A stretch of DNA of 64,000 nucleotides, taken from Eledone cirrhosa (Eukaryota). The notes below the pieces were generated by a model. The model made no database searches, was not told the origin of the DNA, and worked only from the letters and a program-made list of their open reading frames with translations. How positions within the stretch are numbered: the first letter of the stretch is position 1; every line of letters starts with the position of its first letter. Shown here one piece after another: positions 8,437 through 62,795 of this stretch. The stretch spans positions 161,448,001-161,512,000 of the forward strand of contig OZ024743.1 of NCBI GenBank assembly GCA_964016885.1, written 5' to 3'. The translations under genes and the position numbers were made by a program.

Positions 8437-10804
8437 GTGTATGAAACTTTGTTTACACTTTATTTCTATATATATGTACATATAATCTGTAGTGTCTTCC
8501 CTTTTTCCCAACATACAGATATATCCAACCATACTGTAGAAATACAGTGAATCTGTCTGTAATCTTCATGCTATCCTTCAGGTTTATTGGGAACACGAAA
8601 AGAAACACAATAACAGGTTATATAAACAGGCTGCATAGCTACCAACCACACTCTAATATACACCATCTTCATACACATATACACCATTTAGTTAAGACAA
8701 AACACAATTACAAATATCCATTGGCAACCTCTTTCATTTAGCATGTCAGTTGATATATGTAATGATTTCTTTCATTCTGAAAGTTTTCAGTAGGCTAAAT
8801 ATGACATAATATTTAGATGCTTCAAAATCTCCTCATTATACCTCATCCTATCAGTGGACATAGGCAGAAACAATCATTCACAACAATGAAATTGTTCTAG
8901 CCATTTTGTAAAATAGGTCAGTACTTAACTAAATTCACATAAGTCATAGCTTATTAGAATATTAATGTTATGAAGTCAGCATAGGATGAAGGACAATGTT
9001 GTGCAGGATCTCAGCAAAGTCAAGTTTTCCACATGTCTGATATCATGACCTTCACTCTATACAGATTTTTCCTGTATTCATCCATCATTATCTGAAACAA
9101 TCTTTTAGAATTTTCTGTTGGAATCATATTCATCTCTCTAACAGTGGATTAAATATTTAAATCTGAGAATTGCCTCTCATATTAAGAGTGTATATTTACA
9201 TTGTTTCAACTGGGTGGTGAATTGGCAGTATCGGTAGAGGGTCAGACACCATGCTTTCTAGCATAGTTATGTCCCTTTATGATCTGAGTTCAAATCCCAC
9301 CGAGATTAACTTTGCCTTTCATCATTACGGGGTCGATAAAATAAAGTACCAGTAATGTACTGGGTAATTGCTGGCCTTGTGCCAAAAAGTAGAAACAATT
9401 ATGTTTCAACTGGATATTAAACCAATTGGAATGCTGTCTAGACATATTGTAAATATACACTTTAAACATGAATTTGATCTCTATAGCAGTGCAGTTGTTT
9501 CGCTTGCTCACACTATTTATGCTTTGCACTTCTTCCATTTCTCTCCAATGGCAAGCTGACTTCAATGGGAAGTTCCATTGAAGTCAGCTTGCCCTTTCAT
9601 GAGAGGGGGACAATAAAATTCAGAGTAATGAACTGACCAAATTAGAACATTAGACAAGAGGCCTTGTAGTATTTGTTTGGGCTCTTGGACTTAATCTATT
9701 AGCAAATGTAATACCACCACCTAGTTTTTAGGTGCCTTTAGTGGAGTTAACTGAGTTACAAGTATTCCAAGTAGGCCTTCAGTTATTTTCTATTCAATTG
9801 TTTTCCATTTCACTCAAAATAAGGTTAGTGCTGAAGAGGTTTCCACCAGAAATTTATTTTTTATTGAGATGCCATCTCTACAAGGTATTTTAAACAACTC
9901 ATAGGGACCATCATATCTTAAATATGAGGTAAGCTATTCTGCGCTGGACACCAACCCAGTACTTTATACTCTGCAGCATTATTCTTATTGTTTTTGTTTA
10001 CACGTTTCCCATGCAGTGTATATGTTATTGTTACTATTGCTGCTGCTATTATTATCTTTTTGTTTTCTTCTACTGTTATTATCATATTGGACACGTCTGA
10101 AATGGTTGAAGACAAGCACTTTCCTCTTTGGTAAAGCCTTGATTAACTTTGTCAGGTTTCACTTTAAGAGGAAAATCAGGGTGGAGAGAGAAATGCTGCC
10201 TTCCAACCAGTTTGTTGAAAGGTGGGTGAAAGAGGTGAGCATGGCCCAAGTGAATGGGTCTGCTCTGAGTATGCACCTGTAGATTGGAGGAAGACAATTT
10301 GGAGAGGGCACTTGCCCTAGTGGTCAGGGTGATGGAGGCTTTTTGTGGGCTTTCTCCATGTGTGACCCTGGGGGATTTATTTTGTTTGAATTTTTACATC
10401 TTTTCCTCGTTTTTGTTAAAAACCTTTTACAATCAGAAACCCTGAACCCTGCATGGCTATTAAAGTAATCATTATCTTATATGTTGTTACTACTGTGGTG
10501 GTTATTGATGTTGTTTTTGTTGTTAATGTTTTCTTTTGTTGTAGAAGTGGTGGTCACTATTGAGTTGTTGTTACTCGACTAATTATCACTACAATTTCTC
10601 TATGTTTTTTATTTTTTTTATGCTGGAGTGGTGGTGATGGTGGAATAATTGTGGTGGCAGTGGTGCTGATAAAGTAGTGGGTGTTGTTGTTTTTGTGTTT
10701 TGTCTGGGTTTAGTTTTGTAGCCATAACATAGGGGTGTTGTTTTTGTTTATGTCTGGGCCAATAAAGAAATTACTATTATTGTTATTATTCAGTCTTGTG
10801 GATC

Positions 10805-21817: not shown

Positions 21818-22393
21818 GTAAGCCACTTATATCATTTGCTAAACTCTTAACTGCCTCACATACTCTATGATTCCTATACTTCCCCAATATATATATATAT
21901 AGATATGTTAGAAAGTGAGGGTTTATTTACAAAATGAAAAATAACCGAGGTGTCCTACACGAGTGAAAGTATAAAGAAAAAAAGATGAAATCGAAAATGC
22001 AACTGGAGTCTTATTTTTTTTTAAATAAGACTCCAGTTGCATTTTCGATTTCATCTTTTTTTCTTTATATATATATATATATATACATATATGTAGATAA
22101 ATCTACCAAGAGTTTACGGTAGTGTCCAATCCGTATGAAGAACTCAATGTAATCAGGATATCATGGAAAGAAGAGATGCATTCAAAAATCACTTTCGGTG
22201 AAAGATAAACGGAATACAGAGTCAAGATAAAATATTAAAAAAATAATGAATAAAACAATGAAACAGTTCCTTATATTAAACAAAAAAAGTTCATTATTTA
22301 ACGATGTCCTAGAAACGATCGTTAAATAATGAACTTTTTTTGTTTAATATAAGGAACTGTTTCATTGTTTTATTCATTATTTTTTTAATATTT

Positions 22394-23322: not shown

Positions 23323-23508
23323 CTTTATTTGAATATAGGATAATAAATATATATATATATATATATATATATCATCATTATCACCATTTAACGTCCATTT
23401 TTTTCCCCCACAGACAAGGATTAGACGAGTTCTCCTGTTGTAAGCAATACCAGGACAAGTGACCATGTTTTGCTCATACAGAACCGATTTTGTGTGTATA
23501 TCTATATA

Positions 23509-23578
<70 letters not shown>

Positions 23579-24626
23579 AACAAATAAGACCTCGACGGCT
23601 GCGATTCGACGGCTAATTCTGGACTGAATGAAAATTTATTCTGGTATTTAAATAGCCGAGCTTGTCAAGGGGTAATTCCATATATGGTCAAAGAGATAAA
23701 CACCAGGATTGGTCACATCACAAGTTAGTAGTAAATCTGTGAAGGCAAAATGGTGGGGGAAGGGGTAGCTGAACCTGCCGGTAGGAGAAAAAGGGAGAGG
23801 GGGTGGAGTAGACCCATTCAAGCGTTGGTAGTGCCGGCTACAGCTGGGTGTGAGGTCAAAGAGGATACTGGGGAGGGGGAGGGGGAGGAAGTCGAAACGG
23901 TAAGTAAGAACAATGAAGGGTACAACTATGAAAAGTACTGGGAGAGAGAAAAGAAAAAATAAGCAAGGTCTGGTTACTAAGACTTAAGTCTCTCGCTATT
24001 GCTAGGCTAAAGAAATACATAAATAAACAAATAAGTGAATAAAAGAATAGATAAATAAATAAAAAATAAAAAAAATATATATATATATAATGAAGAATAA
24101 AAAATAAATAAAAATAAACTAGGTGGGACGGAAATAAAGGGACCCTTATACGAGGTATAAGTGCGTGTATCGTACGGTGACGGGTCAACAAAGGGGGGGG
24201 GGGGGGCGAAATACTAAAGAGACTACCACGAAATAATAAAGGTTTCTACCCCGATCACGGGGCCAGCAACCACCCAGAGCAAGAAGGTAAACTAGTACGA
24301 GAATATAATTCAGGGTCCCGCAAAAAAATACTCGTGCTAACTCTAAGGGTACCGCCACGAAACAAAAAGTCTTATACAGGCTACATGAAAGATCGTGCGA
24401 GGTAAAAGTAAGGAACGGAAAATTAATACAGAACTCCTCCCCCCCCTCCCCCCAAAAAAATGGAAAAAGAGGAAAAAAATACTGGTTAAACGAAAAATTA
24501 AAGCAAAAATGCCACTAAGAAATATAGAAGGCACGGAGAAAAGGGACAGCGGTCGGAGAAGGGAGCAAGTATCCGAAGTCTAACACCTCTGCTATAAAAA
24601 AAATCAGCAAAAACATCCTAGACCGC

Positions 24627-26141
24627 GTGATACCAAAAGTCAAGCAACACGCCCGCCTTAGCCTATGGATCAACACCCAGGAAGTTATCTCATGGTTCAG
24701 CAATATGGAGGATAAACGAGACACTAAATTTATCCAGTTCGACATAGAGAGCTACTATGCTTCTATCACCTTACCGCTACTTACTGCCGCCTTGGACTTC
24801 GCCGAAGCACTCGTGCCCATCACCGACCAGGAAAGAAAAATCATCCTCCACGCCAGGAAGACAGTCTTACTCTTTGACAACTCCAAATGGATAAAAAGAG
24901 CTCCCGACTCACCCTTCGACGTCAGCATGGGCGCTACGGATTCGGCGGAGGTCACAGATCTTATAGGATTATTCCTTATAGCCAAACTCACCGATATGTT
25001 TCCTGCTTTCGGTGGTGGATTGTACCGTGATGATGGGCTCCTTACCCTTAAAGGGTACAACCCCAGTAGTACAGATCGGGTCCGTAAACAATTAATCAGC
25101 TTCTTCTGCGACTGGGGATTTAAAATAACCCTACAAACGTCCCTGACCCGAGTTAATTTCCTGGACGTTACCCTCGATCTCAATAATGACCTGTACTACC
25201 CATACAGGAAACCCAATGACAACCTGCACTACATCCACCGCCGATCTAACCATCCTAGGAACATCACCAACAACCTGGTCAAAAACATCTCCCTCCGCAT
25301 ATCCCGTTTGTCAGCCAATGAGAAGATATTCGATGAACATGCGCCTTACTACAACCAGGCCCTCAAGCGGAGTGGCTTCCGGGAGGAAATATCCTACTGT
25401 CCAGCTCCCATTAGCGGAACCAGCAGGCGACACCGCCGCTCACGCAATGTAACATGGTTCAATCCTCCCCACAACGCAGAGGTGACAACTCCCATCGGGA
25501 AAATATTCTTTAGGCTCATTGAGAAACACTTCCCTCTACAACACCGCTACCACAACATAATTAACAAAAATACCATCAAACTCTCTTACAGCACTACACC
25601 AAACTTCGCACAAAACATCGCCTCCTCCAACAACAAAAAACTCAACCCTGATGGAAGAAATAACCTAAATAGCAGTGGAGAGCCGACCAGGAGGTGCAAC
25701 TGTCCTGATAGATCCATTTGCCCCCTCGACAACAGATGCAGAGACCGTAATGTGATCTACCAGTGCAACGTGAGGACGGACACCTCCAACAAAGCTTATA
25801 TAGGATTAACCGTATGTGACTTCAAGACCCGGCTATACCAACACAGACATACCTTCCGAAACCCGGCCCGGCGTCACGCCACTACACTTTCGGGCCATAT
25901 ATGGGACCTCAAGGACAACAACATCAACTATGATCTCACTTGGAAATTACTGTCCAGAGCCAACTCTTGCACGGGAGGACACCGTCCGTGCAATTTATGC
26001 TCGGAGGAAACTATACAAATGTTGTTTTCGACGAACCAACTCCTAAATAAGAAAGATGAACTGGTTACTGCATGTAAACACCGATTACGTAGGACTTACC
26101 TCGCCCTCAAACCCCATAATGACCCGGGGGGGGGGGGGTAG
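24627..26141 (+). CDS. PLE reverse transcriptase and GIY-YIG endonuclease, 5'-truncated with an uninterrupted frame
   Basis: FDIESYY, MGATDSAE, GLYRDDGL, FLDVTL, YRKP, CNC...CPL...C, NVIYQC...AYIGLT...FKTRLYQH, CNLC...LLNKKDEL; the frame runs upstream to the inverted-repeat junction near 24600. Confidence 0.93.
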   Translation: MIPKVKQHARLSLWINTQEVISWFSNMEDKRDTKFIQFDIESYYASITLPLLTAALDFAEALVPITDQERKIILHARKTVLLFDNSKWIKRAPDSPFDVSMGATDSAEVTDLIGLFLIAKLTDMFPAFGGGLYRDDGLLTLKGYNPSSTDRVRKQLISFFCDWGFKITLQTSLTRVNFLDVTLDLNNDLYYPYRKPNDNLHYIHRRSNHPRNITNNLVKNISLRISRLSANEKIFDEHAPYYNQALKRSGFREEISYCPAPISGTSRRHRRSRNVTWFNPPHNAEVTTPIGKIFFRLIEKHFPLQHRYHNIINKNTIKLSYSTTPNFAQNIASSNNKKLNPDGRNNLNSSGEPTRRCNCPDRSICPLDNRCRDRNVIYQCNVRTDTSNKAYIGLTVCDFKTRLYQHRHTFRNPARRHATTLSGHIWDLKDNNINYDLTWKLLSRANSCTGGHRPCNLCSEETIQMLFSTNQLLNKKDELVTACKHRLRRTYLALKPHNDPGGGG

Positions 26142-27342
26142 ACTAGGGCTATAACACTCCACTTGCCTATTTTGTAAGGGGTAACCCCTGCTTGCCAATG
26201 GAGACGTAAGACCTTCTTTTACTTTCTTTTATCGCTTCCTTTATATTTCCTCCTTACCCCCATCCCTCCCTAGCCCTTCTACCCCAGTTCCCTTTCTTTG
26301 TCGTCGTCTTTTTCTCGCCCACCCGAGGTAGCCCCTAGGTCCCTCGTCGCTTCAGCACCCCCCCCCCCCCTCCCCTATTCTATGATAGATTTGACTGACT
26401 CCGCTTTTTATAGCAGAGGTGTTAGACTTCGGATACTTGCCCCCTTCTCCGACCGCTGTCCCTTTTCTCCGTGCCTTCTATATTTCTTAGTGGCATTTTT
26501 GCTTTAATTTTTCGTTTAACCAGTATTTCTTTCCTCTTTTTCCATTTTTTTTTTTGGGGGGGGGGGAGTTCTGTATTAATTTTCCATTCCTTACTTTTAC
26601 CTCGCACGATCTTTCATGTAGCCTGTATAAGACTTTTTGTTTCGTGGCGGTACCCTTAGAGTTAGCACGAGTAGTTTTTTGCGGGACCCTGAATTATATT
26701 CTCGTACTAGTTTACCTTCTTGCTCTGGGTGGTTGCTGGCCCCGTGATCGGGTTAGAAACCTTTATTATTTCGTGGTAGTCTCTTTAGTATTTCGCCCCC
26801 CCCCCCCCTTTGTTGACCCGTCACCGTACGATACACCCACTTATACCTCGTATAAGGGTCCCTTTATTTCCGTCCCACCTAGTTTATTTTTATTTATTTT
26901 TTATTCTTCATTATATATATATATATATATATTTTTTTTTTTTTTAAATTTATTTATCTATTCTTTTATTCACTTATTTTTTTATTTATTTATTTATGTA
27001 TTTCTTTAGCCTAGCAATAGCGAGAGACTTAAGTCTTAGTAACCAGACCTTGCTTATTTTTTCTTTTCTCTCTCCCAGTACTTTTCATAGTTTTACCCTT
27101 CATTGTTCTTACTTACCGTTTCGACTTCCTCCCCCTCCCCCTCCCCAGTATCCTCTTTGACCTCACATCCAGCTGTAGCCGGCACTACCAACGCTTGAAT
27201 GGGTCTACTCCACCCCCTCTCCCTTTTTCTCCTACCGGCAGGTTCAGCTACCCCTTCCCCCACCATTTTGCCATCACAGATTTACTACTAACTTGTGATG
27301 TGACCAATCCTGGTGTTTATCTCTTTGACCATATATGGAATT

Positions 27343-27436
27343 ACCCCTTGACAAGCTCGGCTATTTAAATACCAGAATAAATTTTCATTCAGTCCAGAAT
27401 TAGCCATCGAAACGGCTTGAGCTCAGCCGTCGGGGT
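27343..27436 (+). ncRNA. Hammerhead ribozyme variant with U3-A8 core (TTGACAA) in the PLE pseudo-LTR
   Basis: Stem I ACCCC/GGGGT, TTGACAA-G, stem II GGCTA/TAGCC, C-GAAA, stem III ACGGCT/AGCCGT, GTC ending at C27431. Confidence 0.75.
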
Positions 27437-27528
27437 CTTATTTGTTCCTATTACCCACTCTACTACCCTAAGTATTGAGTACTTTGGTGCGTTATGGTCC
27501 ACTTGGTTCCTTACCACATTTCCTTCGT

Positions 27529-27647
<119 letters not shown>

Positions 27648-34936: not shown

Positions 34937-37900
34937 TTAAGAAAAAAAGGATGATTTGCTTTTCTATTGCATATAAATCTTATTGTTGCTTATGCAATAA
35001 ATGATACACAAATATACAATAACAATCTATACAATACTTAATACACATATCATTTGTTAGTATTTAATTCTATAGAAACCACAAGATTAATATATAATAG
35101 CATATTCTTCATTACGCAATATTTTATCATAATTACTTTACATTATACAGTTACGTCCCTTTACGGACTGAGTTCAAATCCCGCCGAGGTTAACTTTGCC
35201 TTTCATCCTTACGGGGTCGATAAAATAAAGTACCAGTAATACACTGGGATAATTTCTGGCCTTGTGCCAAAAGTAGAAACAATTATATACAAATACAAAA
35301 CGACATAGAGAATATACAAACTTTTTATTAACTTGATTGGCTTCAATTTTATTGCAACTTGCAATTGACTCAGAATTATTTTAATAGCTGTTTGCATACA
35401 ATGTTTTTGTCACAGTTTATTATCTCATCTCCCTTGCTTATCAGTGTTCAATACTTCAATTTTTACATCTGACTGTCTGCGAAGTCTTGAAAAAGTGACA
35501 TACAATTGCCCATGGCTAAATACTGGCTCAGGAAGCAACAGACCCACTTTATCATATGTTTGATACTGGCTCTTGTTGATTGTCATAACATATGATTGTC
35601 TTAATGGAAACTGGGTTATTTCCAAAATAAAATGGATGTTGGGATCACTGCCTATCAAAGGAACATTCATATGAGAAGCTTTGATAAAATGTTGATGCAG
35701 TCTCACTACTTCTAATCTTGTGCCATTGCATAATCCGTTCTGGATTGAAATATTCCATAAAAGCATCATTATTCCATAAAAGCATCCTGCTTTTAACTAG
35801 TGTTTGAAGGCGGCATCACAAAAGGTGGAAGCAAGTTCAGAAATTCAGTAGAATATCTGTCCACCTCTGTATTGATTAATAGGCAATCAGCATTCTTGGA
35901 AGATAAAATCAGATGCTATGCCAGTCCAAGCACTGCAACATACCTGATAGTTATTGATCTGGAGGTGAAAAGTCTGTGTATTGAACAGATATGTTTTGCC
36001 ACACCCTCCAGGTGCTACTGCATAAAAGCAAGTATGTGCAGGCCTTTCACCTTTTCTTCTCTGTTGAACAGCATCTATTACAGCATCAGCAATCATTTGT
36101 TGCTCTTCAATAAAAGAATCAATATCAAGGAGGTTGATGTCAACTTGAGGATCAGGTTGAAGCATCTCAATGGGCTAAGGTAGGCCCAGTCTTGTGCAGT
36201 TGGTACCATTTTTAATCAATATTGCATTAATGTAACCAAGTGCCATATTTGCAGCTTGCTGACCATCCATTCCTTGATGCAAATAGTCCTCAATCATTGA
36301 CACCTTTTGAGAGTTTCATAATTGCAATGCATTGGCTGGCTCAGAATAAATGCACAGAACAGCGAACATCATACAAAGTTGTGTTGCCATGTGGTGGGAA
36401 GCTGCTTTCTACAGAGCTTGGCTGAAATAGTCATCATTTTCACTAAGACCAAGTCACAAGCAGGCCTCTTTGAAGGCTGGAAATGTTTCTCCCTCCACTG
36501 TTCGTAGTTCTTCAAAACACTTAGCACCTGGCACGGGAAGTAGCAATACTCTTAAATAAAATTTTTCAACAACTCTAGGGCTGACTGTTCATTCTACTAA
36601 TGATATTATTGTTCCTTCTTCTTTGCATCCATTTTCTGTTGGTTTCATTGAACACATAGTGGTATGTAATTTCTGGTTATAGGTATTTGCTTGCATTTTT
36701 GTCTTCTTCATTTAGCTTGAGCCAGGCAGTAAGGGTCATGTCTCAGTGTCTCTGCATTTCTACTGTGACCTGAGCATTGCCTCTTTGAAAGTAAACTCTG
36801 TTCTCCAGGTATATGGCTATCCTGTAGACTGTATGTGATGTGCCATGATGCTTAAATTCAGAGAAACACCATACTGGTTCTGACAGAGATACATACCTGC
36901 AACCAAGATAGTTCCTTATTTCATCGTGGTTGTGTTGGTTCTGAGCAGCATTAGGTAATGCATTATTCGTTACTTCTATAGATGGACAATCATGCCCCTT
37001 GTAAACATATTTAAAGATGGACTTGATGCTTTTTACAGAAGAGCAAACTTAAACATTAATATGTGCACGATATTTCTTAAGCAAAAAAGGCATTAAATGG
37101 CACAATATTCCTGTCAACTATTGAATGTTATCCAATTTGCACTGCAGTTCCTGTCTTGCACCTCCTGTACTCTGGATATCCATTTAGGTTCAATAATATT
37201 TCCTCTCTGTAGGTTTTTGGATAGTTCTTTTGGTAAAATCCATTTTGCATATATGGGGGAAATGGGTTTCCAGAACCACATGGCCCATGGATCATAAACT
37301 TTTTAACCTACTCATGTAGTACCGGATGATCTTCCAATGCAGGTATTTCTGCTGACACGATTCTGTCAATGTCTTCTCTGTTTCTTACCATGTCTTCATT
37401 TCTTAAGATGACTAACATATGGCAATGTGGAAGTCCTCTTTTTTGGAACTCAATGACATGAATATGAGCCACCGGCACACCAAGAATGTATCATTCTGTG
37501 ATATCTTTAATCGTTTCAGAAAGATGAGCCTTAAAAACCCATGCAACTAAATCTGGTCTGTTTTCTGCTGCTTCATTTTGATTTAAATTATTTCGAACAT
37601 CAGGGTATTTAGGGTTGCATGTATAAGTTATAATATCTGGCTTGCCATATTTGGCAACAATTGTCATAGCATCCTGAAAGTACTGATGCATGTTTCTTGG
37701 GCTGCCAGTAAAGGATGATGGCAAAATAACTGGCACCCCAAGCTTATTACTATCATTTGCTCCTCTCTTTAGAAAATCCATTAATCCATTGTACTCATCT
37801 ACTCGCAATTGGGCTTGATTGTTCCTCAAGTATTGGAGCTTGCATCCCTCTACTTTCACATAGGCATCCACTACATACTGCTGAAGTAATCTGCCTCTAT

Positions 37901-38409
37901 ATGCTATGCAGTATCTGTAATACTCCTGCATTGTCAGTCTATAGCGGATGCGGATCCTACATTCCTCCACATGCTGCATACCACTATGCCGCCCAAATTG
38001 ACCATGTGGAAACAATAAATGGTAGGACATGGGGTCTAAGTGGCATGAATTATATGGTTTTTCTAAAGAAGATGCTATTTAGGGTAGATGACAATATCCC
38101 TGTGTACAGGTGGTGCACCATCTATCCCCATAAAAACAACAGTTATTTCATTGCTAGCTGATAAATTGTAGTGTCTCATATCTGATCCTCTTGTAAATCT
38201 TAATCCACAGTTTTGTATGGGACGATTTTCTCTTCTTTCTCTTTGCTGCTCTTCATGTTCTATGGCATGCAGTTTTGTACACTTCAACATATGGATTACA
38301 TTCATGCAACACTTCATTTATCATAGCCATTGTGGTGAACAGTCATTATTTTGCAGTACTTCCAATCTGTGCTTCACAGCTTCATTTCAGTCAATAATAT
38401 ATAGCTGGT

Positions 38410-46389: not shown

Positions 46390-46867
46390 GTGAGGTAAAA
46401 ATTATATACATGTGTCTTATTATGATAGTTTTGTTTTGTAAGAAATACTTGTTCTGATATTAAGGATTTACACTGACTTATTAGTTCTCAATTTTATAAG
46501 ATCAAACCTATAATTTTGTGTACACCATGATGATTGTCATGGTATGTTTGAGATAAGTATTAAGCTCTTTACTTGCTTGGCTCTACCTAGTATGAGCCAC
46601 ACCTACTTCAGATATGAATATTTTATAATAGAAAAATGAATACTGATTTTATATACCTCCACAATTCATTTGCAAATACTCATATTTACTGAATCATTCT
46701 ATTTATGCAGTATGATAATAGGAATAAAATATGAATGTATTCTTAACTATTTTTTATCATTATTTAAGTGAAATCACCATAATATTATACTTACTGCATT
46801 ATCAACACACAGCCTTCTGTTCCTGATACTCTCTTGTATACCATCTCTTATTATAATCTATTTATCA

Positions 46868-48798
46868 ATCTGGAACGGTGGGACACCATGGTCACCCGGA
46901 TAGTAAACCAAGTCATACAGAATGGAGTTGTTCCAAAGGACTGGCGTAGCAGCATCATCATTAACTGCTACAAGGGTAAAGGAGATGCCATAGATAGGAG
47001 TAACTATAGAGGCATTAAATTAATCGACCAGGTCATGAAGGTCACGGAAAAAGTAATAGCGCAACTAATCAGAGAGAGAATTGATCTAGATGAAATGCAA
47101 TTCGGTTTTGTGTCAGGCAAAAGTACCACAGACGCTCTTTTCATTGTACAACAACTACAGGAGAAGTACCTAGCTAAAAGTAAACCCCTATACTTAGCTT
47201 TTGTTGACTTGGAGAAAGCCTTCGACAGAGTCCCCCGTTCCATTATCTGGTGGGCTCTTAGAAAACTAGGTGTTGACGAATGGCTTGTGAGAGCTATACA
47301 AGCCATGTATAAAGAAACAGTCAGCAAGGTTAGAATTAACAACGAATATAGTGAAGAGTTTAGTGTAAAAGTTGGTGTTCATCAGGGCTCTGTTCTTAGC
47401 CCCCTACTATTTATTATTGCCCTTCAGGCTATAACAGTGGAGTTCAAGACCGGCTGCCCATGGGAACTCCTATACGCAGATGATCTAACGCTCATAGCTG
47501 AATCAATGGCCGAGCTAGAGAAGAAATTCCAAACATGGAAGCACGGCCTAGAATCAAAAGGCCTTAAAATTAACCTGGCTAAGACTAAAGTTCTAGTTTG
47601 TAGGAAAGAAAATAAGGCGCCGGTCCCTAACGGGAAAAGGCCATGCTCAGTGTGTAGGAAAGGCGTAGGTAGAAACTCCATTTTATGTCCCAAATGCAAA
47701 GTATGGGTGCATAAAAGATGTAGTGGGATCACAGGTAAGCTAACTAAGAACATAGATTTTACATGTGGCCGGTGCTCTGGTGCAATAAGTAGCAGCAAGT
47801 GCCCACAAAATACTAGCTCTTTCAATTGCGCAGAGGGTTCTATAGAAATAGTGGACAGCTTCCGTTACCTGGGTGACAAAATCAGCAGTGGGGGAGGGTG
47901 CTCTGAAAGTACAGTAGCTACAGTCAGAACTGGATGGAAAAAGTTCAGAGAGCTTATACCACTATTAGCCGCTAAAGGGTTCTCCCTAAAAATGAAAGGC
48001 AGGTTGTATGATGCCTGCATACGAACAGCAATGTTACATGGCAGTGAGACCTGGGCATTGTGTGCAGAGGATATACGCAGACTAGAGAGGAACGAAGCTT
48101 GCATGCTCCGCTGGATGTGTAATAGTAATATACGTGAACGGCAAAGTATAAACGAACTAAGGAAAAAATTAGAAATAAGAGAGATCAGATGTTGTTTACT
48201 CGAGAGAAGGCTACGTTGATATGGTCACATGATGCGCATGAAAGACGACAACTGTATAACAAAGTGCAAGGCAATAAAGATAGACGGTAGCCACGGAGTA
48301 GGCAGACCCAGAAAAACCTGGGACGAGCTGATAAATTCCGACTTCACACACTTACACCTCTCCAAGACAATGTAACTGGACCGAGACCTTTGGCGGTACT
48401 CAGTAATAGAGAAGACCCGCCTTACCTAAATACAAAGTAAAACCTACTACAGTCAGTAGGCATCTCTAACAAAATACACCCCCACCCCATCCACACCGCC
48501 CCTTTCAATGTAAAGTTATGTTGGTGCCACAACATCCAGGCCAAAACAAATGAGATCGTGTAGGTGTCACGACAAAAAAAACATACAGTCCACGCTGTAA
48601 TGTGGCTGTGTAGGCAACACGGTAAAAACCTCCCAGCCCCACACTGTAAATGTGGTTGGTGTTAGGAAGGGCATCCAGCTGTAGAAAACCCGCCAGACAG
48701 TCCTATGCGAGCAAGACAATCACTCTTGCCTCAAGTGGGAAAACTCCCGTCCAAACCCATGCAAGCGTGGAACACGGACGTTAAACGATGATGATGAT
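46868..48798 (+). mobile_element. Young RTE LINE, 5'-truncated (RT domain to tail), with premature stops near the 3' end
   Basis: ORF to 48219 with NYRGIKL, QFGF, FVDLEKAFDRVP, GVHQGSVLSP, YADDL, YLGD; TGA replaces the W codon; (GAT)n tail. Confidence 0.95.
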
Positions 48799-50355: not shown

Positions 50356-50791
50356 GTTCATGGAAAAATGAGAAAACTCATTGTTAGAACAGCTGTTAGA
50401 CCAACCAAATGCTGTCAATGACAGCGATGGACAAAAATGCCTCAGAGGACAGAGACCAGCGGTCGGCAGAGAGACAGTCCAGGAATTTTGTAAAAGCGGA
50501 GGAAGACAAGGTGAATTGTGTTGCTGCACAGAAATATAGAAAAGATTAAGAGAGGAGGAGAAGAAGAAGTGTGTTGGTGCACAGAAGTCACTTCCATGTG
50601 CTGACACACTTCTTCTTGTCTTCCTCCTCTCTCAATCTTTTCTATATTTCATCTGTCTGTCACCCACCTTGTAGATTGTCTTTCTGATGACCACTGGCTG
50701 CTGGTCTCTGTCCTCTGAGGCATTTTTGCCCATTGCTGTCTTTAGCTGTTTTAACAGCTGTTCTAGTGAGTTTTCTCATTTTTCTATGAAT
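50356..50791. mobile_element. Foldback MITE-like element of ~435 bp
   Basis: Extended imperfect inverted arms centred near 50590 (gaagaagtgtgttggtgcac / gtgctgacacacttcttc). Confidence 0.75.
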
Positions 50792-57052: not shown

Positions 57053-57450
57053 TTAATGGCATGGCTGAGCACCTGACCGGCTTGGCACTTTCAGGTCAGT
57101 TTGTCTACTCACCCCTTCCACCTCGTATTTCGGCCTGTCTAGCACCCCACCACCAAGAAGGTAATAAACTATATGCATGACATTAAGCAGGACTAAACAA
57201 GCCATTTGATCTGGGGAAACATCCCACCCCAGCCTCCGATTACTGATCACTCCCAGAGAAAAACAAGAAAAATAACCAACTTTTATGATCTTTTGCATAG
57301 ATTTTTTGCTTTTTTGCTTTAACTGCATGTCCATATATGGACTGTACCCCTTGATAAGTTCAGCTAGATTCCCGCCGTTCTAATACTGGAGGCTTAATTC
57401 GGGTCTAACTATCGAAACGGCTGGAGCTCAGCCGTCAGTGTCCTGAATCT
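57053..57450 (+). mobile_element. Diverged PLE pseudo-LTR fragment with a U3-A8 hammerhead
   Basis: ccatatatgg...ACCCC-TTGATAA-G...C-GAAACGGCTGGAGCTCAGCCGTC, homologous to 27329-27436. Confidence 0.7.
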
Positions 57451-58313: not shown

Positions 58314-59268
58314 CCATCATCATCATCATCATCACCGTTTTACGTCCGTTCTTCCATGTTAGCATGGGTTAGTCGGGTTGTCCTGTTGTGGGCAGTGTCT
58401 GGTCGGCTGACCATGCCTTGCTCATACAGGAACTGATTTTGGCTTCATTTCTACAGCTGGATGCCCTTCCTAACACCAACCTCATTTACAGTGAGTGCTG
58501 GGTGCTTTTTCCGTGGCGCCAACACGTCCACTTTACAGTGTGGGCTGGATGCTTTTTTGCCGTGGCACCTCCACGACCACCTTGCAGTGGGAGGGTGTGG
58601 GGGCATATTGTCTATATGCTTCAGCTCGTACCCATGGGAGGTCGGGTACTCTGTATTACTGTGTGACGCCAGAGGTCACGGTCGTGTGTCATCGCCTTTG
58701 AAAGGTGTAATTGGGTAAGGTCGGCTTTTATCACCTCATCCTAGGTCTTCTTGGGTCTCCCCATTCCGCGGTTTCCATTGACTTCTAGTGCTATGCACCT
58801 TTTTATGCAGCTGTCATCCTTCATACGCATCACATGTCCATACCAACGCAACCGCCTCTTATGCTCAGTCTCTCTCTCTCATTTCATTTATGCTTTGTCG
58901 TTCACATATATTACTATTACACATCCATCGGAGCATGCAGGCTTCATTTCTTTCTAATCTACGTAAGTCTTCCACCTTCAGCGCCCAGGTCTCACTACCA
59001 TGTAACATTGCTGTTCGGATACACGCATCATACAGTCTGCCTTTCATTTTGAGGGAGAAGCCTTTTGCAGCTAGCAGTGGCAGTAGCTCCCTGAACTTCT
59101 TCCATCCCGTTCTTACCCTAGTTATTGTACTTTCTGAACACCCATCTCCGCTGCTAATTCAGTCACCTAGATAGCAGAAGCTGTCTACTGTTTCTACAGA
59201 GCCCTCCCAGAGATTGGTGGTACTTGTTTCCTGTGGCTGTTTGCTGCTTGCTGTCCCAGCACAGCTGC
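58314..59268 (-). mobile_element. RTE LINE 3' portion (related subfamily)
   Basis: ORF 58865-59047 KGRLYDACIRTAMLHGSETW; 3'UTR and tail. Confidence 0.88.
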
Positions 59269-59681
59269 ATATATATATATATAATAAGGAGTTGATGGAC
59301 CCAACATATATATCAATGCCAGGACTGGTTGTATCTCAGCGTACTCAATAGGCAATGTAGGATACATTCCCAGAATATACACATAGTTATTCGCTTCAAT
59401 ACAACACATGTAAACGGGTGCCTATAATAGTTCCTGGACTCGAGTTTCGGCCACACTTAGTGCAGCAGCAGGGTGCACTGCACCCTCTGTCTGCATATAT
59501 TATGCAACAATGCATATATATATATATGTATATATATAATGAAAAAAGTGTGGTAAGGAACCAGGTGGACCATAACACACCAGAGTACTTGATACTTTGT
59601 GAAGTAGAGTGGGTAATAAGAAAATAGTCAGAACACCGACGGCAGAGCTCAAGCCGTTTCGACAGCTATTTCTGGACATAC

Positions 59682-61200: not shown

Positions 61201-62795
61201 TCATCATCATCATCATCATCAACGTTTAACGTCCGTGTTCCACGCTTGCATGGGTTTGGACGGGGGTTTTCCCACTTGAGGCAAGAGTGGTTGTCTTGCT
61301 CGCATAGGACTGTCTGGCGGGTTTTCTACAGCTGGATGCCCTTCCTAACACCAACCACATTTACAGTGTGGGGCTGGGAGGTTTTTACCGTGTTGCCTAC
61401 ACGGCCACATTACAGCGTGGACTGTGTGTTTTTTTGTCGTGACACCTACACGATCTCATTTGTTTCGGCCTGGATGTTGTGGCACCAACATAATTTTACA
61501 TTGAAAGGGGCGGTGTGGATGGGGTGGGGGTGGTGGGACGGGGGTGTATTTTGTTAGAGATGCCTACTGACTGTAGTAGGTTTCACTTTGTATTTAGGTA
61601 AGGCGGGTCTTCTCTATTACTGAGTACCGCCAAAGGTCTCGGTCCAGTGACATTGTCTTGGAGAGGTGTAAGTGTGTGAGGTCGGAATTTATCAGCTCGT
61701 CCCAGGTTTTTCTGGGTCTGCCTACTCCATGGCTACCGTCTATCTTTATTGCCCTGCACTTTGTTATATAGCTATCGTCTTTCATGCGCATCACGTGACC
61801 ATACCAACGTAGCCCCCTCTCGAGTAAACAACATCTGATCCCTCTTATTTCTAATTTTTTCCTTAGTTCGTTTATGCTTTGCCGTTCACGTATATTACTA
61901 TTACACATCCAGCGGAGCATGCAAGCCTCGTTCCTCTCCAGTCTGCACACATCCTCTGCACACAATGCCCAGGTCTCACTGCCATGCAACATTGCTGTTC
62001 GTATGCAGGCATCATACAACCTGCCTTTCATTTTTAGGGAGAACCCTTTAGCAGCTAATAGTGGTATAAGCTCTCTGAACTTTTTCAATCCAGTTCTGAC
62101 TCCAGCTACTGTACTTTCAGAGCACTCTCCCCCACTGCTGATTTTGTCACCCAGGTAACGGAAGCTGTCCACTATTTCTATAGAACCCTCTGCGCAGTTG
62201 AAAGAGCTAGTATTTTGTGGGCACTTGCTGCTACTTATTGCACCAGAGTACCGGCCACATGTAAAATCTATGTTCTTAGTTAGCTTACCTGTGATCCCAC
62301 TACATCTCTTATGCACCCATACTTTGCATCTGGGACACAAAATGGAGTTTCTACCTACGCCTCCCCTACACACCGAGCATGGCCACTTCCTGGAAGGGAC
62401 CGCCGCCTTATTTTCTTTCTTACAAACTAGAACTTTAGTCTTAGCCAGGTTAGTTTTAAGGCCTTTTGATTCTAGGCCGTGCTTCTATGCTTGGAATTTC
62501 TTCTCTAGCTTGGCCATTGATTCAGCTATGAGTGTTAGGTCATATGCGTATAGGAGTTCCCATGGGCAGCCGGTCCCGAACTCCTCTGTTATAGCCTGAA
62601 GGGCAATAATAAATAGTAGGGGGCTGAGAACAGAGCCCTGATGGACGCCAACTTTTACGCTAAACTCTTCACTATATTCGTTGTTAATTCTAACCTTACT
62701 GACTGTTTCTTTATACATGGCTTGTATAGCTCTCACAAGCCATTCGTCAACACCTAGTTTTCTAAGAGCCCACCAGATAATGGAACGGTGGACTT
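61200..62795 (-). mobile_element. Young RTE LINE copy with an A-to-G excess
   Basis: ORFs 61594-62373 and 62485-62736; near-identical to 46868-48798. Confidence 0.93.

What the first reader, a model, noticed from the sequence alone, without database searches (positions are those of the whole stretch)
27329..27436. Non-canonical hammerhead (C3-G8 replaced by U3-A8) in a Penelope pseudo-LTR, present in two diverged copies
Seen: a full type I hammerhead scaffold (stems I-III, GAAA, GUC) with core TTGACAA here and TTGATAA at 57351-57357, instead of CTGANGA. Both copies keep an upstream CCATATATGG palindrome and a GAGCTC palindrome in stem-loop III, while the stem II insert has diverged. A third half-copy lies at 59632-59677(-). 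Known: positions 3 and 8 form a tertiary base pair in the active core, so U3-A8 is compensatory; PLE pseudo-LTRs commonly carry hammerheads. Inference: an active variant that CUGANGA-based searches would miss.
Basis: partly seen in the sequence, partly recalled or inferred. Interest (0 to 1): 0.75.

Follow-up and report, generated by a model that had tools for sequence, protein, structure and literature searches.

The report
Mismatch-tolerant hammerhead in Penelope retrotransposon
This is a hammerhead-shaped RNA motif at the end of a Penelope-type jumping gene; its U-A core pair is already in print, but hundreds of genomic copies begin exactly at the predicted cut site, likely a record of self-cutting in the animal, and this likely holds even for subfamilies whose core pair is mismatched and would be expected not to cut.

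Summary
The motif is real: a type I hammerhead scaffold (27343-27436) with core UUGACAA, in the end repeat of a 5'-truncated, (TA)n-inserted, Hydra-like Penelope-like element. U3-A8 is published for natural hammerheads (PMC3088659) and for PLEs (PMC4209133), and this scan noted it before on other DNA. 'Compensatory' fails as covariation here: genome-wide the scaffold is U3-A8 2263, C3-A8 1088, U3-G8 29, C3-G8 8. The C3-A8 mismatch ran through several successive subfamilies that kept the scaffold conserved. About 485 copies start exactly at G27432, the first base after the predicted cut, against about 87 and 43 at two neighbouring control sites; inverted partner arms often end there too, and C3-A8-type tails are not depleted among them. 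So the RNA is likely cut in vivo, probably as a dimer through the GAGCUC loop, while most insertions span the site and come from uncut or re-ligated RNA. The 57 kb copy is a decayed member of a sister family, and a fourth, broken copy (23588-23674, -) was missed. Cleavage itself is untested.

The parts
27343..27436 (+). Type I hammerhead scaffold, family A (youngest subfamily, core U3 C7 A8)
   Evidence: Sequence; own CM 104.8 bits (self-match); 39 of 39 parsed copies in the 30 closest loci are U3-A8
27348..27354 (+). Core strand U3 U4 G5 A6 N7 A8 A9
   Evidence: Position 7 takes all four bases among subfamilies, 8 is A in 3351 of 3388, 3 is U or C
27355..27408 (+). Long stem II: G10.1-C11.1, 2x1 pyrimidine loop, CGGCUA/UAGCCG helix (27358-27363 with 27401-27406), variable distal arm
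   Evidence: 3 pairs with two-sided changes between families A and B
27412..27430 (+). Stem-loop III: ACGGC/GCCGU closing NN-GAGCUC-N; palindrome 27419-27424, predicted dimer contact
   Evidence: Stem invariant in 19 of 19 aligned copies; flanking loop bases vary, hexamer kept; cofold energies
27431..27432 (+). Predicted scissile bond C17/G1.1; hotspot of 5' ends of short genomic copies
   Evidence: About 485 true breaks vs about 87 and 43 at control sites
27329..27338 (+). Small hairpin upstream of stem I (CCATATATGG); hairpin kept, palindrome not invariant
27432..27530 (+). Tail with two fixed element ends (about +19 and +99 from the cut); in tandem copies it continues into the 5' UTR, ATG 191 nt after the cut
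   Evidence: 127 of 165 copies end in two peaks; full unit in L132, 3,603 nt cut to cut
24601..26141 (+). 5'-truncated Hydra-like PLE ORF (RT + CxCX5C linker + C-terminal GIY-YIG-type endonuclease); the open frame from 24528 begins in the inverted arm
   Evidence: motifs as in Craig 2021 section 11
26142..27530 (+). 3' UTR / pseudo-LTR of the direct arm
23574..24600 (-). Inverted 5'-truncated arm (95.5% identical to 26405-27451), ending at the short end
23588..23674 (-).
23500..23573 (.). (TA)n left flank
27531..27609 (.). (TA)n right flank
57345..57442 (+). Decayed U3-A8 hammerhead of sister family B (stem I and stem II partly broken)
59529..59677 (-). 3' half copy (stem III + long tail, no core strand) of another subfamily

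Best explanation
This is the type I hammerhead motif in the end repeat of a Hydra-like Penelope-like retrotransposon, carrying the published U3-A8 core, and it likely cuts the element's RNA in vivo after C27431, probably as a dimer paired through the GAGCUC loop. Shown: scaffold, element context, two fixed 3' ends at about +19 and +99, a 5'-end hotspot at G27432, and a long C3-A8 phase of the lineage. Inferred: the element's RT starts at either fixed site downstream of the ribozyme; on a cut template it runs off at G1.1, adds a few untemplated bases and leaves 19- and 99-nt stubs, often head to head; on uncut or re-ligated (circular or tandem) RNA it reads through the site and gives the ordinary longer copies, which are the majority. 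Inferred: the 3-8 pair is not strictly needed in this scaffold in vivo (weak C-A pairing, the alternative C3-G7 register, protein help, or cutting in trans by a U3-A8 partner in the dimer). The window's own copy is 5'-truncated and likely not a source element.
For: Core kept across three families whose stems differ: family C has stem I AUUCUC/GAGGAU and a palindromic stem III ACUGCGCAGU around the same UUGAUAA core (21 of 46 matches), and a CM built from A/B alone scores it at E 3e-4 to 9e-3 (6 of 6 motifs). N7 is free. Copy ends: 633 pattern hits at G27432 with 23 of 30 loci true breaks (about 485) vs 118 with 22 of 30 (about 87) at 27429 and 71 with 18 of 30 (about 43; 19 on re-call) at 27436. 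Partner arms not selected by the pattern end at 27432 in 13 of 33 cases in cut-site loci, at 27431 in 1. Base before the junction T 21, A 11, G 6 of 38: no cap-G signature (C excluded by design). C3-type tails: 7 of 23 cut-site breaks vs 9-10 of 41 control breaks; 0 of 13 cut-site copies of the mixed group carry the U3-subfamily marker seen in 8 of 8 U3 and 0 of 15 C3 intact copies. Scaffold conserved along the C3 lineage: 2 of 58 vs 49 of 213 fixed differences upstream, p 2.6e-4. Double-hammerhead fold is below two monomer MFEs in 17 of 19 copies. PAc hammerhead cleaves only with protein and is dispensable for insertion in vitro (PMC11167929 passages).
Against: No cleavage assay. Monomer MFE is not the hammerhead: 3.5 kcal/mol ensemble penalty for the window copy, a strand-swapped rod wins. 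No 3-8 covariation. A natural CUGANAA motif was inactive in a co-transcriptional assay (PMC8490949 section 11); in a pairwise scan only the G3-C8 swap rescued this region (PMC9901934 passage). Frangieh et al. saw no RNA-seq reads ending at the PAc cut site. Stems I and III are invariant within A/B, so they give no covariation, and the count of two-sided pairs is not above shuffles (415 of 500). Only two control positions were counted and 27431 and 27433 were not searched genome-wide; partner arms in cut-site loci may not be independent events. For the 5' half alone, conservation in the C3 phase is borderline (1 of 21, p 0.054), and upstream indels are counted per column.
Confidence: 0.68

Rival explanations
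1. The hotspot is a reverse-transcription stall or fold-back at the foot of stem-loop III (or a GGGG/CCCC artefact), and the hammerhead is catalytically weak or vestigial; the scaffold is kept as a protein-binding or dimerisation structure.
For: C3-A8 lineages show the same hotspot although CUGANAA was inactive in vitro elsewhere; nearly all long copies span the site; HHR mutants do not affect PAc insertion; monomer misfolds.
Against: A stall at the hairpin foot should usually include the unpaired C17, but partner arms end at 27432 (13) not 27431 (1); the first helix met by RT (stem I, 27436) is not a hotspot; U4 G5 A6 A9 and GAAA stay fixed across families with unrelated stems.
Confidence: 0.17
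2. Only U3-A8 ribozymes are active; C3-A8 transcripts were cut in trans inside mixed dimers with U3-A8 RNAs of co-expressed families.
For: Stems I and III and GAGCUC are identical among subfamilies and family B, so mixed dimers are compatible; in a double hammerhead each site is cut by the partner's core (PMC4209133); literature calls CUGANAA inactive.
Against: The C3 lineage kept its own catalytic half (1 of 21 changes, borderline p 0.054) and returned to U3; the hotspot is not weaker for C3-type tails. This rival is compatible with the main statement for the window copy.
Confidence: 0.3
3. G27432 is a transcription start site of the pLTR promoter, not a cleavage product.
For: C/G fits a pyrimidine-purine initiator (general knowledge); pLTRs hold promoters (PMC6765202 passage); the ATG lies 191 nt downstream.
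Against: Coincidence with the hammerhead bond to the base would be chance; only 6 of 38 junctions have G before the end, no cap signature.
Confidence: 0.07

Closest known systems
U3-A8 minimal hammerheads of S. mansoni Cercyon PLEs (Cervera and De la Pena 2014, PMC4209133)
   Same: Type I, in PLE end repeats, U3-A8 core, G10.1-C11.1, palindrome in loop III, mostly solo truncated copies
   Different: Here stem III has 5-6 bp and a 9-nt loop (could close as monomer), stem II spans 54 nt, no extra base between A9 and G10.1, and a third of copies are C3-A8
Hydra clade of PLEs incl. Hydra-1_Obim (Craig et al. 2021, PMC8557442)
   Same: C-terminal endonuclease, CxCX5C linker, DKT motif, CxxC and CxH, (TA)n targeting, inverted truncated arm, tail
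   Different: All Hydra hammerheads listed in File S2 part read are CUGANGA with short stems; Hydra-1_Obim has CTGAAGAG and a different sequence; unit here is 3.6 kb, tail about 80 bp
Natural U3-A8 hammerheads (Perreault et al. 2011, PMC3088659)
   Same: Same core change, called active in vitro
   Different: There reported as covariation; here position 3 toggles against a fixed A8
PAc Poseidon element of Anolis (Frangieh et al. 2024, PMC11167929)
   Same: Two RT start sites downstream of the hammerhead define the tail; insertions span the cut site
   Different: Canonical C3-G8 core; no RNA ends found at its cut site, whereas here DNA copy ends pile up at it

Membership tests
Hammerhead ribozyme, type I | Three helices around the core, open ends in stem I | tested here: met
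   92.6% of cells paired over 19 copies, slid controls 25-56%; family C changes stems I-III and keeps pairing
Hammerhead ribozyme, type I | U4 G5 A6 N7, A9, G12 A13 A14, A15.1-U16.1, H17 | tested here: met
   (3' core partly fixed by the search pattern)
Hammerhead ribozyme, type I | Watson-Crick pair 3-8 | tested here: inconclusive
   Met in the window copy (U-A) and 2271 of 3388 copies; not met in 1088 C3-A8; no covariation
Hammerhead ribozyme, type I | Self-cleavage 3' of H17 | not testable with these tools
   Indirect only: 5'-end hotspot at G27432
Hammerhead ribozyme, type I | Tertiary contact between stems I and II | not tested
   No contact modelled; stem II is too long for the usual loop-loop geometry
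Hammerhead ribozyme, type I | Match to an Rfam hammerhead model | tested here: not met
Hydra-clade PLE | RT with C-terminal GIY-YIG-type EN, CxCX5C linker, CxxC and CxH around E/N | tested here: met
   CNCPDRSIC, VIYQC..AYIGLT, CNLC, CKH in P0001; Pfam gave no hit
Hydra-clade PLE | DKT and RWK motifs | tested here: met
   SDKTGN and RWR (variant) in the full-length copy L132
Hydra-clade PLE | (TA)n insertion, pLTR/tandem and inverted arrangement, tail | tested here: met
Hydra-clade PLE | Canonical CUGANGA hammerhead; length under 3 kb (typical, not diagnostic) | tested here: not met
   U3-A8 core; 3,603-nt unit
Hydra-clade PLE | Placement inside Hydra in an RT tree | not tested
   Reference proteins seen only as supplement text; compared by eye
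Non-LTR retrozyme | Non-coding tandem units of a few hundred nt bounded by hammerheads | tested here: not met
   Unit is 3.6 kb and encodes RT-EN

The most novel reading that the evidence does not exclude
A natural hammerhead with a C3-A8 mismatch (core CUGAGAA) self-cleaved in vivo for about 0.2 substitutions per site of retroelement evolution, using a non-Watson-Crick 3-8 pair or a shifted C3-G7 register inside a kissing-loop-nucleated dimer, and the genome keeps a base-resolution fossil record of that cleavage in hundreds of cDNA stubs.
Probability: 0.3. Interest if true: 0.78.

Novelty: new variant of a known kind. Interest (0 to 1): 0.5.

Why it matters
Whether PLE hammerheads cut in vivo and what for is open (Craig 2021 calls their function unclear; Frangieh 2024 found no RNA ends at the site). 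Copy ends at the scissile bond give a DNA-only readout that can be applied to any PLE family. The family also offers a natural allelic series in one scaffold (U3-A8, C3-A8, U3-G8, all four N7), so the need for the 3-8 pair can be tested with real sequences; an active C3-A8 core would widen hammerhead search descriptors. The U3-A8 swap alone is ordinary.

Tried and rejected
RNA evidence: no RNA holder listed; the four listed runs are contigs of unrecorded kind and show no starts or ends, so they say nothing on expression. Rfam: no hammerhead hit. Pfam: no family for the ORF. An alternative stem pairing U3-N7 with the base before GAAA was considered and dropped because N7 takes all four bases. 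Covariation of the GAGCUC hexamer: 50 copies with both ends changed look sporadic, 13 remain palindromic by hand count, no subfamily: uninformative. Rooting family A on family B is unstable (vs 98), so direction rests on the unrooted ladder and terminal branch lengths. The A/B labels, the p72 labels and the end calls at 27387/27391 are script artefacts and are not used. Linking family C to an ORF failed (a Hydra-like fragment about 5 kb away in 1 of 3 stretches). An extra G at the cut junction (23 of 100 rows; 3 of 175 unselected copies) could not be told from slippage. Four primary papers on 3-8 mutants and PLE dimers were not held (Przybilski and Hammann 2007, Nelson and Uhlenbeck 2008, Martick and Scott 2006, Lunse 2017); they may contain C3-A8 data. 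The supplement search of PMC3088659 returned nothing (figure content may be invisible); bioRxiv supplements are closed.

Full report
Observation. The described bases are present at the stated places: stem I ACCCC 27343-27347 with GGGGT 27432-27436, core TTGACAA 27348-27354, G10.1 27355 with C11.1 27408, GAAA 27409-27412, stem III ACGGC/GCCGT around TT-GAGCTC-A, and GTC ending at C27431. The copy at 57345-57442 has the TTGATAA core but broken stem I and II pairs; the copy at 59632-59677(-) lacks the core strand; a fourth copy at 23588-23674(-) has lost stem III. Rfam does not see the motif.

Context. The motif lies near the 3' end of a 5'-truncated element: ORF remnant 24601-26141, 3' UTR to 27530, an inverted arm 23574-24600 (95.5% identical to 26405-27451), (TA)n on both sides. 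The protein has 1,588 relatives at E<=1e-20 among 7,994 scored candidates, about 40-44% identical and typically 700 aa, and shows the features Craig et al. give for the Hydra clade (section 11 read): CxCX5C linker, CxxC and CxH around the endonuclease end, DKT. A tandem full-length relative has 3,603 nt from cut site to cut site and an ATG 191 nt after the cut, so the tail is the 5' UTR of the next unit. Of 165 copies, 63 end 16-18 and 64 end 96-97 nt after C17 as measured to the TA run, i.e. two fixed ends near +19 and +99, matching the two RT start sites that define the PAc tail (PMC11167929 passages). Long copies therefore span the scissile bond and must come from uncut or re-ligated RNA (inference).

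Is it a hammerhead? Position 7 takes all four bases. Over 19 copies of families A and B, 92.6% of cells pair against 25-56% for slid controls; three stem II pairs change on both sides, but that count is not above shuffles and stems I and III never covary. Stronger support comes from a third family found with a relaxed pattern (21 of 46 matches): same UUGAUAA core, but stem I AUUCUC/GAGGAU, another stem II, and a palindromic stem III ACUGCGCAGU; a model built from A/B scores its 6 motifs at E 3e-4 to 9e-3 (these loci were picked by a core-containing pattern).

Is U3-A8 new or compensatory? It is in print: Perreault 2011 (section 8) and Cervera and De la Pena 2014 (parts 1-2 of 4 read: about 1,300 motifs in S. 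mansoni PLEs). The Hydra hammerheads listed in Craig's File S2 (part 2 of the supplement) are all CUGANGA. Earlier notes of this scan report U3-A8 PLE motifs in this and other genomes. Genome-wide exact patterns give U3-A8 2,263, C3-A8 1,088, U3-G8 29, C3-G8 8 (reversed controls 0). C3-G8 is no more common than independence predicts (12 expected, p 0.22). So position 3 toggles against a fixed A8. 94 of the 100 listed C3-A8 rows have G7 (hand count).

History of the mismatch. A tree of 92 copies and one of 56 of them with position 3 masked (near-duplicates and apparently recombinant or sporadic rows such as L117, L130, L061, L074, L007, L025, L110 left out) give the same ladder: U3 (A7/C7) - C3 G7 (several subfamilies, inner branches summing to about 0.2) - U3 G7 - U3 U7/C7, the last including the window copy. 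Neither C3 nor U3 copies form one clade (AU p 4e-6 and 1e-5). The root is not stable between the two trees; terminal branches suggest the A7/C7 end is oldest. Between the two ends of the C3 stretch there are 49 fixed differences in 213 upstream columns and 2 in 58 scaffold columns, both at non-core loop positions (p 2.6e-4; 5' half alone 1 of 21, p 0.054).

Footprint of cleavage. At G27432: 633 hits, 23 of 30 inspected loci true breaks, about 485. At 27429: 118 hits, 22 of 30, about 87. At 27436: 71 hits, 18 of 30, about 43. Many cut-site copies are head-to-head stubs in which an inverted short arm ends at the same base with a few foreign bases between; among 33 partner arms in cut-site loci 13 end at 27432, 3 at 27433, 1 at 27431, 1 at 27434, against 2 of 33 in control loci and 2 of 91 in unselected loci. 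The base before the junction is T 21, A 11, G 6 of 38. Tail markers assign lineage: in the mixed group a C at tail position 94 marks 8 of 8 U3 and 0 of 15 C3 intact copies, and 0 of 13 cut-site copies have it (p 0.03). C3-type tails are 7 of 23 cut-site breaks and 9-10 of 41 control breaks. So the hotspot is as strong for the mismatch lineages. Limits: small samples, two control sites, an unsampled U3 subfamily with the C3-type tail cannot be excluded, and partner arms may not be independent.

Folding. Stems II and III share strands (CGGCU, AGCCG), so monomers prefer a strand-swapped rod; the hammerhead fold costs 3.5 kcal/mol for the window copy and 1.6-4.5 for most intact copies. A double hammerhead joined through stems I, III and GAGCUC is lower than two monomer minima in 17 of 19 copies (-8.1 for the window copy), and within about 2 kcal/mol of the dimer minimum for typical copies, 5.4 for the window copy; the 57 kb copy is unfavourable either way. 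Self-complementary RNAs gain energy on dimerising regardless, so this is permissive, not proof. The 2+6+1 loop geometry resembles retroviral kissing loops (recalled, from no call). Dimer action of PLE hammerheads is described in PMC4209133 and PMC6765202 (passages).

Against activity. A natural CUGANAA motif was inactive in vitro (PMC8490949 section 11); a pairwise scan found only the G3-C8 swap rescuing this region in its construct (PMC9901934 passage); PAc hammerhead mutants still insert, and no RNA reads ended at its site. PMC3884650 (passages) notes that tolerance of core changes differs among scaffolds.

Literature coverage. Searches for C3U/G8A, C3-G8, C3-A8/CUGANAA and truncated PLE copies at the cleavage site found no report of an amplified C3-A8 lineage or of copy ends at the cut site, within the open-licence library; four primary papers were not held. 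The 2026 retrozyme preprint was read only in part 1 of 5; PMC7151607 gave an irrelevant match.

Verdict. A real PLE hammerhead of a published core type in an unusual long-armed scaffold. The headline swap is ordinary; what deserves follow-up is the base-exact genomic trace of cleavage and its persistence in a mismatched-core lineage. New variant of a known kind; interest 0.5.

Noticed in passing
L134-L148 (e.g. L140:1505-1598 -): Third (TA)n-associated family with U3-A8 core, unrelated stems and a perfect 10-nt palindromic stem III; often in inverted pairs; no ORF linked
   Followed up: partly
L061, L096, L101: About 13 of 29 U3-G8 matches share linked changes and look like a small subfamily with a U-G wobble at 3-8; the 59.6 kb half copy resembles it
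   Followed up: partly
window 21975-22065: Near-perfect 42-bp-arm palindrome (z -19.5); the same sequence start appears beside TA runs in L082 and L099, suggesting a fold-back or MITE-like element
   Followed up: no
window 50527-50657: Another long palindrome, seen only through weak miRNA-model hits
   Followed up: no
window 46783-48219 (+), 61516-62794, 1369-2059, 58600-59265: LINE-like family with RT followed by a PHD finger, several copies, one inverted pair 95% alike
   Followed up: partly
window 37491-38078 (-): Helitron helicase-like fragment (PF14214, E 3e-36)
   Followed up: no
window 9265-9404, 10861, 11095, 12865, 18161, 35149: Dispersed 140-nt repeat with a tRNA B-box-like stretch, likely a SINE
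   Followed up: no
L025 (+ strand, near 2400): Tandem duplication of stem-loop III between the repeated AGCCGTCG words
   Followed up: no
rows; window 27431-27436: An extra G right at the cut junction in about 1.7% of copies (3 of 175): slippage or template jump across the cut
   Followed up: partly
window 27396-27523 vs 27060-27380: In runs of organism A the 3' half and tail are far deeper than the core half, and no C variant is listed at position 3 (27348) above 5%, so the C3 phase may be lineage-specific
   Followed up: no
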